Shown: piece by piece, positions 8,602 through 57,357 of the stretch | Layout: each line of letters begins with the position of its first letter | How positions within the stretch are numbered: position 1 is the first letter of the stretch | The notes under the pieces: generated by a model | What the model saw: the letters and a program-made list of their open reading frames with translations, nothing else | Told to the model about the DNA's origin: nothing | Database searches by the model: none | Origin: Eledone cirrhosa | Lineage: Eukaryota | DNA: 64,000 bases | NCBI GenBank assembly: GCA_964016885.1 | Contig: OZ024743.1 | Span: 54,436,001 to 54,500,000 of the forward strand | Reading direction: 5' to 3' | Translations under genes and position numbers: made by a program

Positions 8602-8635
<34 letters not shown>

Positions 8636-8649
8636 GTATATAACAAAAG

Positions 8650-8822
8650 AATTGTGGTAAGGAACCGGATGGACCATAACGTACCAGAGTACTCAATACT
8701 TAGGGTAGTAGAGTGGGAAATAGGAAAAAGTATGACCCCGACGGCAGAGCTGAAGCCGTTTCGACGGCTGTTTCTGGAGTCCAGAAATAGCTCTGCCGTC
8801 GGGTTCATACTTTTTCCTATAC
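8650..8822 (-). mobile_element. Short HHR-family-B element with inverted 5' end
   Basis: Homologous to 20916-21031, 27258-27466, 57025-57198; internal inverted repeat 8720-8751 / 8789-8820. Confidence 0.7.
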
Positions 8823-20743: not shown

Positions 20744-21042
20744 ACATCTTTAATAAACGAAGTCAAATCTTTAATATTTGACTTAATTACTTTATTTTAC
20801 ATTACTCCGGAGTAACCAAACCAACCTGCGTACTTCGTCGAGTGCTCCAATTTGCATACTGAGGTATCGGTAAATAACCAACATATACTCAAAATTTACA
20901 CATATATATAACAATGAAAGTGTGGTAAGGAACCAGGTGGACCATAAGGCGCCAGAGTACTCGATAGTAGGCGTCCGGATCTAGCTGTCAAACGGCCGGA
21001 GCTCAGCCGTCGGGGTCCTGACTCTTTTCCTACACACACACA

Positions 21043-26774: not shown

Positions 26775-27257
26775 TGTATGGATGGATGAATGGATGGATG
26801 TAAAATGTAAACAGAAATAACAACACAATCGTTACAGTATATGGAAGGAAATAATGAACAACTTAGGAAAATTAACAGAGGATAAGACAACGAACGAAAA
26901 CAAGGTAAAACGAAAAACAATTTTTTAAGGGGAACCTTAAAAAATTGTTTTTTAAGAAAATAAAAATACAAACGAAAGACACAGAACTCCAGGATCATTG
27001 ACCGTTGAGGTGGACATTGGCAGTTTCGACCCCTACCAACGGTACTTCTCATACACCCGGGATCACAGCGTCTGACACAAGCCAAACGCTGTCCAATGGA
27101 GTAAAAGACGAAAGGCAAAAGATTTATTTTTAGCAATTAAGCCACAACAAGTACACATAGAACTTATCTGACGTCAGGAAGACGTGTGGTGCTTCTTATA
27201 GCACGAAAGACTCGAAAATGGGTTTCATACATATATATGTATATATATATATATAAC

Positions 27258-28472
27258 GAAGGAAATGTGGTAAGGAACCAGGTGGACCATAACGCACCAA
27301 AGTACACAATACTTAGGGTAGTAGAGTGGGTAATAGGAATGAGTAGGACCCCGACGGCTGAGCTCAAGCCGTTTCGACGGCTAATTCTGGACTAAATGAA
27401 CATTTTTATCCTGGTATATGAATAGCCGAGCTTCTCAGGAGGTAATTCCATATATGGTAAAAGTGATTGATAGAATTGGCCGACTCCGCTTTTTATAGCA
27501 GATGTGATAGACCCTGGATACTTGCTTTCTTATCCGATGGCTGCCCCTTTTCCGTGCTTTCTGCAGTTCTTAGTGGTATCTTTGCTTTAATTTCTCGTAT
27601 ATCAGTATTTATTTTTTTGCGGGGGGGGGGGGGGGGGGATTCTGAATTCATTTTCCGTATCAAATTTTTCATATATTTCGTACGAGCATTTATGTAGTTT
27701 GCACTAGAATTTTTGTATTGTAGCGGCACCCGTAGAGATAGTATTAGTATTCTTTTTCGGGATTCTGAATGATTATTTCGTATTAGTTTATTTTTTGCAC
27801 TGGGTGGTTGCTGGCCTTGTGCCTGGGGTGGAAACGGTTATTTCGTATTAGTCTCGGGACTCTGAATTGTTATTTCGTGGTAGTTTCTTTAGTATTTTGG
27901 CCCCCCCCCCAACTTGTTGACCCGTCACCGTAAGATATACTCGGTTGATTACTACTACCTCTTAAAAGGGTCTCATTATAATTCCGTCCCACCTAGTAAA
28001 TTTTTCTATAGTCTAGCAGTACCAGTGAGAGACCTTATGGCTGTCCTTAGGGAATAGTAACCAGAAATTTTTTTTTTATATTTAATTGTTTTTTTAATAT
28101 TCTCGGTATTTTTCTATATATTTACCCAATATTGTTTTACTTGTTTCGACTTCCTCCCCCTCCCCCTCCCTAGTTTACTTCCTTGAACTCCTGTCCTGCT
28201 ATCAACGCACGACTGGGTTTCCTCCACCCCCTCTCCCTCTTTCTTCTACTGGCAGGTTCAGCTACCCCTTCCTTCCACAAATTGCTATGATAGAATTATG
28301 TGTCACAACAACAAACTTTTGACCAATCCTTGTGACACTCACTTTTACCATATATGGAATTACCCCCTGAGAAGCTTGGCTATTCATATACCAGGATAAA
28401 AATGTTCATTTAGTCCAGAATTAGCCGTCGAAACGGCTTGAGCTCAGCCGTCAGGGTCCTACTCATTCCTAT
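27258..28472 (-). mobile_element. 1.2-kb non-coding HHR-family-B element with ~135-bp inverted terminal segments, flanked by (TA)n
   Basis: 27333-27466 is the near-exact inverse of 28339-28472; HHR-like fold in both; no credible ORF. Confidence 0.75.
28362..28457 (+). ncRNA. Hammerhead-like fold with variant core (CUGAGAA) and long palindromic stem III
   Basis: acccc-CTGAGAA-g..ggcta/..../tagccgtc-GAAA-cggcttgagctcagccg-TC-agggt; mirror copy on minus strand ~27347-27442. Confidence 0.55.
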
Positions 28473-28489
28473 ATATATATATATATACA

Positions 28490-28551
<62 letters not shown>

Positions 28552-28825
28552 TATATATACAGAGCATTTGATGTTATTCCAAATTGAAGGATAAGTGTTT
28601 CAAACTTTATTTTATCATGAGTTAAAGGTCTATAGATTTTCCCTGGATTTTACTAAATTCTGTGGATGAATTTATATCCTGATTCTCTTTTGAGATGAGT
28701 TTGAGTTATTTTTCCTAAATCTTTCGTTAACTACTTTTCCCATCTTGACGTTATAGTCGCATATATGTTATAGAATGCCGTTAGCTTCTTGCTAAAACAA
28801 TCTCTATACCTCTCATTTATATACA

Positions 28826-50533: not shown

Positions 50534-50694
50534 CGAATTCCCATATTTTTCGACCTTGAAACTATAGTTAAAACATATTTATGTAAAACGCTGTTCACAT
50601 TTTTCTTATATTCTTTGCACTGGGATAATTGGTGGCCTTGTGCCAAAAATAGAAACAATTATTTACGTAATTAATTAAGTAGTATCTATTTATG

Positions 50695-57024: not shown

Positions 57025-57198
57025 AAAAGAGTCAGTCCCCCGACGGCTGAGCTCCGGTTGTTTCGACTAGCTGTCGAAACGGCGGGACCTCAGCCGTCGG
57101 GGTCCTGACTCTTTTCCTATTACGCACTCTACTACCCATAGTATCGAGTACTCTGGTGCGTTATGGTCCACCTGGTTCCTTACCACACTTCCTTCGTT
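57025..57198 (+). mobile_element. HHR-family-B remnant with inverted 5' end
   Basis: Fold-back centred just before GAAA-cggc..gccg-TC-gggg; tail TCGAGTACTC..GGTTCCTTACCAC. Confidence 0.72.
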
Positions 57199-57199
57199 A

Positions 57200-57357
<158 letters not shown>

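What the first reader, a model, noticed from the sequence alone, without database searches (positions are those of the whole stretch)
27797..27842. SINE fragment with pure A>G hypermutation: candidate retroposed ADAR-hyper-edited RNA
Seen: this stretch reads gcactgggtGGttgctggccttgtgcctGGGgtGgaaacGGttatt. The consensus of other copies in this window (19395, 36855, 38025, 50839) is gcactgggtaattgctggccttgtgcctaaagtagaaacaattatt. That is 8 differences in 46 nt, all A>G (27806-7, 27825-7, 27830, 27836-7). The changed A runs follow T or C, while the run after G (gaaac) is spared. The flanks (27540-27900) are unusually rich in tcgt/ccgt and include a long G run, as expected if CA>CG and A-run>G-run conversions extended further. 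The fragment lies inside the inverted-repeat-bounded HHR element 27258-28472. Established: ADAR disfavours a 5' G, inosine is reverse-transcribed as G, and coleoid cephalopods edit very heavily. Inference: an edited transcript was written back into the genome. The edited strand (+) is opposite to the inferred element sense, so the history may involve two steps.
Basis: partly seen in the sequence, partly recalled or inferred. Interest (0 to 1): 0.85.

Follow-up and report, generated by a model that had tools for sequence, protein, structure and literature searches.

The report
RNA editing inherited by jumping genes
A 46-letter piece of a short repeat, carried inside two unrelated jumping-gene families, has gained A-to-G changes step by step in each family, likely because the enzyme ADAR edited their RNA and the edited RNA was copied back into the genome, which would make RNA editing a heritable source of mutation.

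Summary
The eight A>G differences are real, but this is not one hyper-edited retrocopy. The fragment is a SINE 3' end inserted, with a 15-nt target duplication, into the 3' UTR of a Penelope-like family (at least 334 copies), on its sense strand. An empty-site subfamily roots a ladder: SINE-identical A state, mosaic A/G copies, fixed Gs. Four Gs are family-wide, three are shared with a sub-lineage, one is private. In 97 copies sampled without regard to the fragment, 8 of 13 fragment A columns carry shared Gs versus 7 of 208 elsewhere; T>C 0 of 14; the A after G stays A in all. A second, unrelated LINE family (404 matches) captured the same SINE end independently and shows five changes, all A>G. 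About 30,000 free SINE copies show no such bias. Best explanation: ADAR editing fixed by repeated retrotransposition (0.8); the duplex partner is likely antisense SINE RNA (inferred). Editing in RNA was not observed here. The flank claims and the opposite-strand claim fail. The scan noted a related single-copy L1 case in another genome. My searches found no paper showing ADAR shaping retrotransposon subfamilies.

The parts
27797..27842 (+). 3'-terminal 46 nt of a tRNA-type SINE, captured in sense orientation; carries 8 A>G changes
   Evidence: matches positions 142-187 of a natural 187-nt free copy
27806..27807 (+). two Gs fixed on the family trunk (basal copies and free SINE have AA)
27825..27827 (+). 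three Gs: 27826-7 family-wide; 27825 gained repeatedly
27830..27830 (+). G in T-A-G context, gained in several lineages and in the second host family
27832..27832 (+). the A with a 5' G; never changed to G in either host family
   Evidence: A in 99 of 99 rows and 68 of 68
27836..27837 (+). 27837 G shared with a five-insertion sub-lineage; 27836 G private to this copy
27773..27787 (+). left copy of the 15-nt target-site duplication of the SINE insertion
   Evidence: empty-site copies hold it once
27838..27852 (+). right copy of the target-site duplication (first 5 nt overlap the SINE tail)
   Evidence: a contig skipping 65 nt here
27468..28472 (+). 5'-truncated 3' UTR of an autonomous Penelope-like retrotransposon family (Hydra-type motifs), sense strand
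27258..27469 (-). inverted copy of the element's 3' end including its tail; makes the 137-nt inverted repeat
27227..27256 (.). (TA)n target microsatellite, left flank
28470..28559 (.). (TA)n target microsatellite, right flank
27622..27639 (+). unstable G homopolymer that predates the SINE insertion; not an editing product

Best explanation
A SINE 3' end inserted into the 3' UTR of a Penelope-like retrotransposon and then gained only A-to-G changes in steps across subfamilies, likely because ADAR edited that stretch of the element's RNA, likely where it paired with antisense SINE RNA, and the element's reverse transcriptase would copy each inosine as G into a new germline copy. Edited copies became source elements, so edits were inherited and added to in later rounds. 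The same happened independently in a second (REL-type LINE) family that captured the same SINE end. Shown: the insertion, the direction A to G, the confinement to the SINE piece, the strand, the neighbour bias, the stepwise inheritance, the second family. Inferred: ADAR as the enzyme, the RNA stage, the duplex partner (cis read-through or trans unresolved).
For: Root: 58 empty-site and 28 basal matches; a tree built without the fragment orders empty, all-A, mosaic, G-fixed. Confinement: 8 of 13 fragment A columns have G in at least 3 of 97 copies versus 7 of 208 elsewhere (Fisher p 5.7e-8); T>C 0 of 14. Event rate: 41 A>G versus 4.3 expected by tree parsimony, the other 11 classes within 0.5-2.2 fold; a conservative spanning-tree count gives 15-16 gains versus 1-8 in each of 13 control blocks of 13 A columns. 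Basal subfamily: 26 of 39 changes are A>G; 14 of 25 insertions carry at least one, 11 at least two, in 11 different combinations. 5' neighbour events per site: T 16/4, A 23/6, C 2/2, G 0/1, the order reported for ADAR (PMC8586724, passages). Both arms of 11 of 11 inverted or tandem double insertions agree at every G, as expected for changes already in the template. Second family: 404 matches; in 68 copies G at five SINE A sites (53/66, 65/66, 63/66, 65/67, 66/68), no other majority change. Free SINE: 30,226 unedited-pattern versus 19 double-G matches, of which 11 are the two host families; single A>G 133 versus single T>C 154. Gs are in raw DNA reads of an independent study.
Against: The duplex partner was not found: the best partner inside the element is no better than shuffles (-23.6 versus -25.4 +/- 2.8 kcal/mol; 70 of 100 shuffles as good) and its As are not G-enriched; full-length copies of the second family hold no antisense SINE. 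Many copies sit in long inverted duplications that should form dsRNA, yet the rest of the element shows no A>G excess (0.22 versus T>C 0.32). The 41-event figure is inflated by a poorly resolved tree; the cautious ratio is about threefold, and the spanning tree needs 10 G>A losses. Only one 5'-G site exists in the fragment. Two trunk changes inside the fragment are not A>G (A>C at 27836, A>T at 27837). Whether this copy's three shared extra Gs are an independent gain or recombination with a sub-lineage is unresolved. I did not search the genome for ADAR genes.
Confidence: 0.8

Rival explanations
1. A reverse-transcriptase error hotspot: this sequence or its fold provokes A>G misincorporation during copying, with no deaminase involved.
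For: Changes arise at or before copying (arm pairs agree); trunk changes elsewhere lean to T>C, a typical copying error (21 of 69).
Against: The same sequence copied about 30,000 times as a free SINE shows A>G equal to T>C; two unrelated RTs give overlapping site sets; many copies gain 2-4 Gs at once; the A after G is spared.
Confidence: 0.07
2. Selection on ordinary mutations: host elements that lose SINE likeness escape SINE-directed silencing and take over.
For: G-rich lineages outnumber the all-A lineage (6 of 97 all-A). Selection may amplify edited variants even under the best explanation.
Against: Any change would reduce likeness, yet shared changes are A>G at 8 of 13 columns and T>C at 0 of 14; A>G still pairs as G-U, the weakest way to break a duplex; single dead-end copies also carry clustered Gs.
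Confidence: 0.05
3. Gene conversion or template switching from a G-bearing SINE subfamily, or between element subfamilies, made the mosaics.
For: Recombination between subfamilies could explain some haplotypes, including this copy and reciprocal types.
Against: No G-bearing free SINE subfamily exists: 5 free copies among 19 double-G matches, and 1 of 100 linked G among single-G copies. Mosaics that differ at adjacent bases cannot come from crossovers, and recombination does not create the Gs. The two host families have different G sets.
Confidence: 0.04
4. A DNA-level adenine deaminase or mutator (such as the both-strand TpA hypermutation noted in an earlier scan finding) acts after insertion.
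For: T-A contexts are among the most changed (16 events at 4 sites).
Against: One strand only, A-A contexts equally hit, free SINE DNA with the same sequence untouched, both arms of inverted pairs (opposite DNA strands) carry the same Gs.
Confidence: 0.03
5. One reading: one hyper-edited RNA, edited also in its flanks and on the antisense strand, inserted once at this locus; or an assembly artefact.
For: This copy has the most Gs seen in the family and one private G; a single free truncated SINE with 8 A>G of 9 changes does exist elsewhere (L246).
Against: 7 of 8 Gs are shared with other copies; flanks are not hypermutated; strand is sense; raw reads carry the Gs.
Confidence: 0.01

Closest known systems
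ADAR A-to-G hypermutation of retroviruses (Rous-associated virus 1, Felder 1994; avian leukosis virus, Hajjar and Linial 1995), as cited in PMC8586724 (passages read; originals not read)
   Same: Edited RNA reverse-transcribed into DNA, A>G clusters, 5'-G avoidance.
   Different: Those are single viral clones. Here the edits are germline, cumulative over subfamilies of two non-LTR-type retrotransposons, and confined to a captured SINE piece.
APOBEC 'DNA editing' footprints in genomic retrotransposon copies (PMC2873906, passages read)
   Same: A host deaminase leaves same-type mismatch clusters fixed in retroelement copies.
   Different: G>A from cDNA deamination there; A>G on the sense strand here. 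In the passages seen that paper treats A>G clusters in DNA as the control class.
Editing of SINEs embedded in long transcripts through inverted neighbours (PMC5625713 and PMC4982230, passages read)
   Same: SINE sequence as preferred ADAR substrate; octopus CNS has over a million hyper-edited sites; lizard Penelope is heavily edited at RNA level.
   Different: Those are RNA-level observations. PMC4982230 (2016) states that a role of ADAR in Alu subfamily evolution 'has not yet been determined'; here such a role appears recorded in DNA.
Genomic A-to-G substitution at cephalopod editing sites (PMC7703385, passages read)
   Same: Edited adenines turn into genomic G more often than other adenines.
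   Different: Explained there by selection on ordinary DNA mutations; 'reverse transcri' and 'retrotranspos' occur 0 times in its text. Here the route is likely direct copying of edited RNA.
Hydra clade of Penelope-like elements (PMC8557442, section 11 and passages read)
   Same: C-terminal GIY-YIG, CxCX5C linker, CxxC and CxH motifs, (TA)n targets, inverted truncated copies.
   Different: No canonical hammerhead core found in this family's 3' region; carries an edited SINE cargo.

Membership tests
ADAR A-to-I editing footprint | same-type A>G clusters on one (transcribed) strand | tested here: met
   strand from ORF
ADAR A-to-I editing footprint | 5' neighbour preference U/A/C over G | tested here: met
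   events per site T 16/4, A 23/6, C 2/2, G 0/1; A after G unchanged in 68 of 68 in the second family; only one 5'-G site exists
ADAR A-to-I editing footprint | heterogeneous, partial editing between molecules | tested here: met
   11 different G combinations among 14 edited basal insertions
ADAR A-to-I editing footprint | edited region lies in double-stranded RNA | tested here: inconclusive
   no significant partner inside the element or inside full second-family copies; an antisense SINE duplex would be -83.7 kcal/mol but was not located in a source transcript
ADAR A-to-I editing footprint | A in DNA, G in RNA of the same individual; dependence on ADAR | not testable with these tools
   needs matched RNA and DNA, or a knock-down
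Penelope-like element, Hydra clade | single ORF with RT then C-terminal GIY-YIG | tested here: met
   by motif reading of a 417-aa frame in L028; Pfam and PDB searches gave no hit for this partial frame
Penelope-like element, Hydra clade | CxCX5C linker; CxxC and CxH around conserved E and N | tested here: met
   seen in translations of L045, L046, L050, L071 and L003 region against the description
Penelope-like element, Hydra clade | insertion into (TA)n with inverted truncated copies | tested here: met
Penelope-like element, Hydra clade | canonical hammerhead ribozyme | tested here: not met
   no Rfam match, no core motif in three copies' 3' regions; 5' ends of full-length copies not examined, so clade membership stays a lead
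Penelope-like element, Hydra clade | RT phylogeny places it in the clade | not tested
   no reference sequences held
SINE insertion by target-primed reverse transcription | 5' truncation, intact 3' tail, target-site duplication, empty-site relatives | tested here: met
REL-type LINE (second host; R4/Dong-like label is recalled) | single ORF with RT, CCHC finger and restriction-like endonuclease | tested here: met
   1216-aa ORF, RVT_1 E 1.5e-28; C-terminal motifs read; clade not tested by tree

The most novel reading that the evidence does not exclude
ADAR is a heritable, site-directed mutator of retrotransposons in this germline: any SINE piece captured by a long retrotransposon RNA is guided to editing by the genome's pool of antisense SINE RNA, and successive edits define subfamilies and erode the element's SINE likeness, letting edited lineages escape SINE-directed silencing. 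Captured SINE pieces would then serve as dated fossil recorders of germline RNA editing.
Probability: 0.35. Interest if true: 0.9.

Novelty: new variant of a known kind. Interest (0 to 1): 0.76.

Why it matters
RNA editing is normally treated as non-heritable. A 2016 review (PMC4982230) calls a role of ADAR in retrotransposon subfamily evolution logical but undetermined. Here two independent families appear to record it with an outgroup, an internal control (the rest of the element) and an external control (30,000 free copies of the same sequence). It implies ADAR activity on retrotransposon RNA in the germline, gives named sites for a direct RNA test, and warns that subfamily-diagnostic changes used for dating can be editing products.

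Tried and rejected
RNA evidence: no RNA holder listed, so expression and editing were not tested. One laid raw run (X7) gave 0 reads, no test. The private G at 27836 could not be tied to this locus in reads, because reads come from many paralogs. Internal stem as ADAR substrate: first suggested by folds, rejected as unsupported by shuffles and unedited partner As. Family-wide hypermutation: rejected (A>G 62 over 220 A columns versus T>C 97 over 383 T columns in 30 copies). Three-letter alignment within the window found only the SINE piece, no edited flank source. Hammerhead: not found. Pfam and PDB gave nothing for the partial Penelope-like frame. Antisense-oriented SINE pieces with T>C clusters: none seen (2 double-C matches; 1 of 100 listed single-C copies had a second C), so the mirror-strand prediction is untested rather than met. 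The first event count (44 events, rate 1.71 versus 0.24) was set aside because that sample was chosen by G-containing patterns. Rows dropped: four poor rows, three basal copies outside the listed 100, one broken arm, duplicate rows, two tandem twins, three second arms. Literature: ten searches found no report of ADAR edits fixed along retrotransposon subfamilies; the library lacks most subscription papers. The SINE was not matched to a named family (one search gave no sequence test).

Full report
Observation. Against natural free SINE copies they differ at eight places, all A>G; A is the column majority at each among 134 SINE copies collected without regard to these sites (a few host-family copies were misfiled in that set, so its A>G rate is if anything inflated). 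The piece is the last 46 nt of a 187-nt tRNA-type SINE in sense orientation.

Context. The surrounding 866 nt is a repeat family: 43 listed matches at 89-97% identity from 3103 candidates, 40 scored, and 334 exact matches to a 34-place pattern. Longer copies continue upstream into an ORF with RT and GIY-YIG motifs on the same strand as the fragment, so the window holds a 5'-truncated 3' UTR of an autonomous Penelope-like element plus an inverted copy of its 3' end, in (TA)n. The linker and cysteine motifs fit the Hydra clade as described in PMC8557442 (section 11 read); Pfam and PDB did not hit the partial frame and no canonical hammerhead was found. The SINE piece is flanked by a 15-nt duplication, and 58 matches define an empty-site subfamily.

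The Gs are mostly inherited. Among 29 close paralogs G is the majority at 27806-7 and 27826-7; 27825, 27830 and 27837 are G in 4, 3 and 3; 27836 in none. A tree of 131 copies built without the fragment and rooted on empty-site copies gives a ladder: empty, SINE-identical all-A, mosaics, four Gs fixed, further Gs in sub-lineages. The window copy is the G-richest seen. Whether its three shared extra Gs are an independent gain is unresolved: three downstream diagnostic sites side with an older group, two with the G-rich sub-lineage.

The bias is confined, one-stranded and patterned. I sampled by an anchor upstream of the fragment: 120 matches, the first 100 listed, 97 distinct usable copies. Eight of 13 fragment A columns carry G in at least 3 copies versus 7 of 208 A columns elsewhere (Fisher p 5.7e-8); T>C does so in 0 of 14 fragment columns. 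Tree parsimony gives 41 A>G events against 4.3 expected, other classes 0.5-2.2 fold; this overcounts because the tree is poorly resolved. A cautious spanning-tree count gives 15-16 gains against 1-8 in each of 13 control blocks, with 10 losses needed. In 25 basal insertions 26 of 39 changes are A>G, in 11 different combinations. Events per site by 5' neighbour are T 16/4, A 23/6, C 2/2, G 0/1, matching the ADAR preference stated in PMC8586724 (passages).

Independent replicate. The double-G search found a second host: the 5' UTR of a LINE with a 1216-aa RT and restriction-like endonuclease ORF (the R4/Dong-like label is recalled). It has 404 matches and captured SINE positions 137-187 separately. 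In 68 copies analysed, five SINE As are G in the majority and nothing else has changed; the A after G is intact in 68 of 68. The G set overlaps but differs from the first family's.

External control. Free SINE copies are not biased: 30,226 unedited-pattern matches versus 19 double-G matches, of which 4 are the first host, 7 the second, 3 junction artefacts and 5 free copies. Single A>G at 27825 has 133 matches, single T>C at the next-door site 154, neither with linked second changes (1 of 100 listed each). So no G-bearing SINE subfamily could have served as donor. One free truncated copy has 8 A>G among 9 changes (L246). Raw DNA reads of an independent study carry both A and G at the family-wide sites, and a contig from a second organism has G at 27807 and 27826-7, which excludes an assembly artefact for the shared Gs.

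Mechanism. Shown: insertion, direction, confinement, strand, neighbour bias, stepwise inheritance, replication. Established: ADAR edits SINEs embedded in long transcripts through inverted neighbours (PMC5625713, PMC4982230, passages), and edited retroviral RNA is copied to DNA (cited in PMC8586724). Inferred: ADAR edits the SINE piece in the element's RNA, RT writes G, edited copies become sources. Because the bias stops at the SINE boundaries, the partner is likely antisense SINE RNA; a partner inside the element is unsupported and none lies in full copies of the second family. Cis read-through versus trans pairing is open. That long inverted duplications of the element left no element-wide A>G excess is unexplained; such RNAs may simply not be retrotransposed.

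Novelty. The ingredients are known. Ten literature searches found no paper showing ADAR edits fixed along retrotransposon subfamilies, and PMC4982230 names this as undetermined in 2016; most subscription papers were not searchable. The scan noted a single-copy L1 case in another genome, an unchecked AI note. Verdict: new variant of a known kind; mechanism confidence 0.8; interest 0.76.

Noticed in passing
L246:1486-1582 (minus strand): A free 5'-truncated SINE copy with 8 A>G among 9 changes: a true single-copy hyper-edited retrocopy candidate. L240 and L244 carry 3 A>G each.
   Followed up: partly
L237, L350-L353; G000:C1:131993000-132013628: Second host LINE family, in tandem arrays of about 5.3 kb within (TAA)n, with the edited SINE end in its 5' UTR; no unedited or empty-site ancestor was searched for.
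   Followed up: partly
window 27792-27797: The two independent captures start within 5 nt of each other (SINE positions 137 and 142), suggesting a preferred stop of reverse transcription near a short SINE hairpin.
   Followed up: no
L076, L094, L103: Further independent, longer SINE insertions into the same ATT-rich part of the Penelope-like 3' UTR; these copies look unedited. An insertion hotspot.
   Followed up: no
window 27470-28472 (family trunk): Outside the fragment, trunk changes lean to T>C (21 of 69) and A>T (14), unlike the C>T and G>A of terminal branches: a copying-stage mutation spectrum.
   Followed up: partly
window 27850-27882: A mild A>G rise just 3' of the fragment (12 events at 9 A columns, and a fixed A>G at 27879 on the branch that gained the SINE) may be spill-over editing.
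   Followed up: no
L137/L138: Tandem duplication of the whole SINE insert between its target duplications.
   Followed up: no
window 50609-50675: Another 5'-truncated SINE end with nearly the same boundary, unedited and not in this element.
   Followed up: partly
window 8613-8820, 20913-21032, 57038-57200: Related Penelope-like 3' ends in (TA)n from other subfamilies.
   Followed up: no
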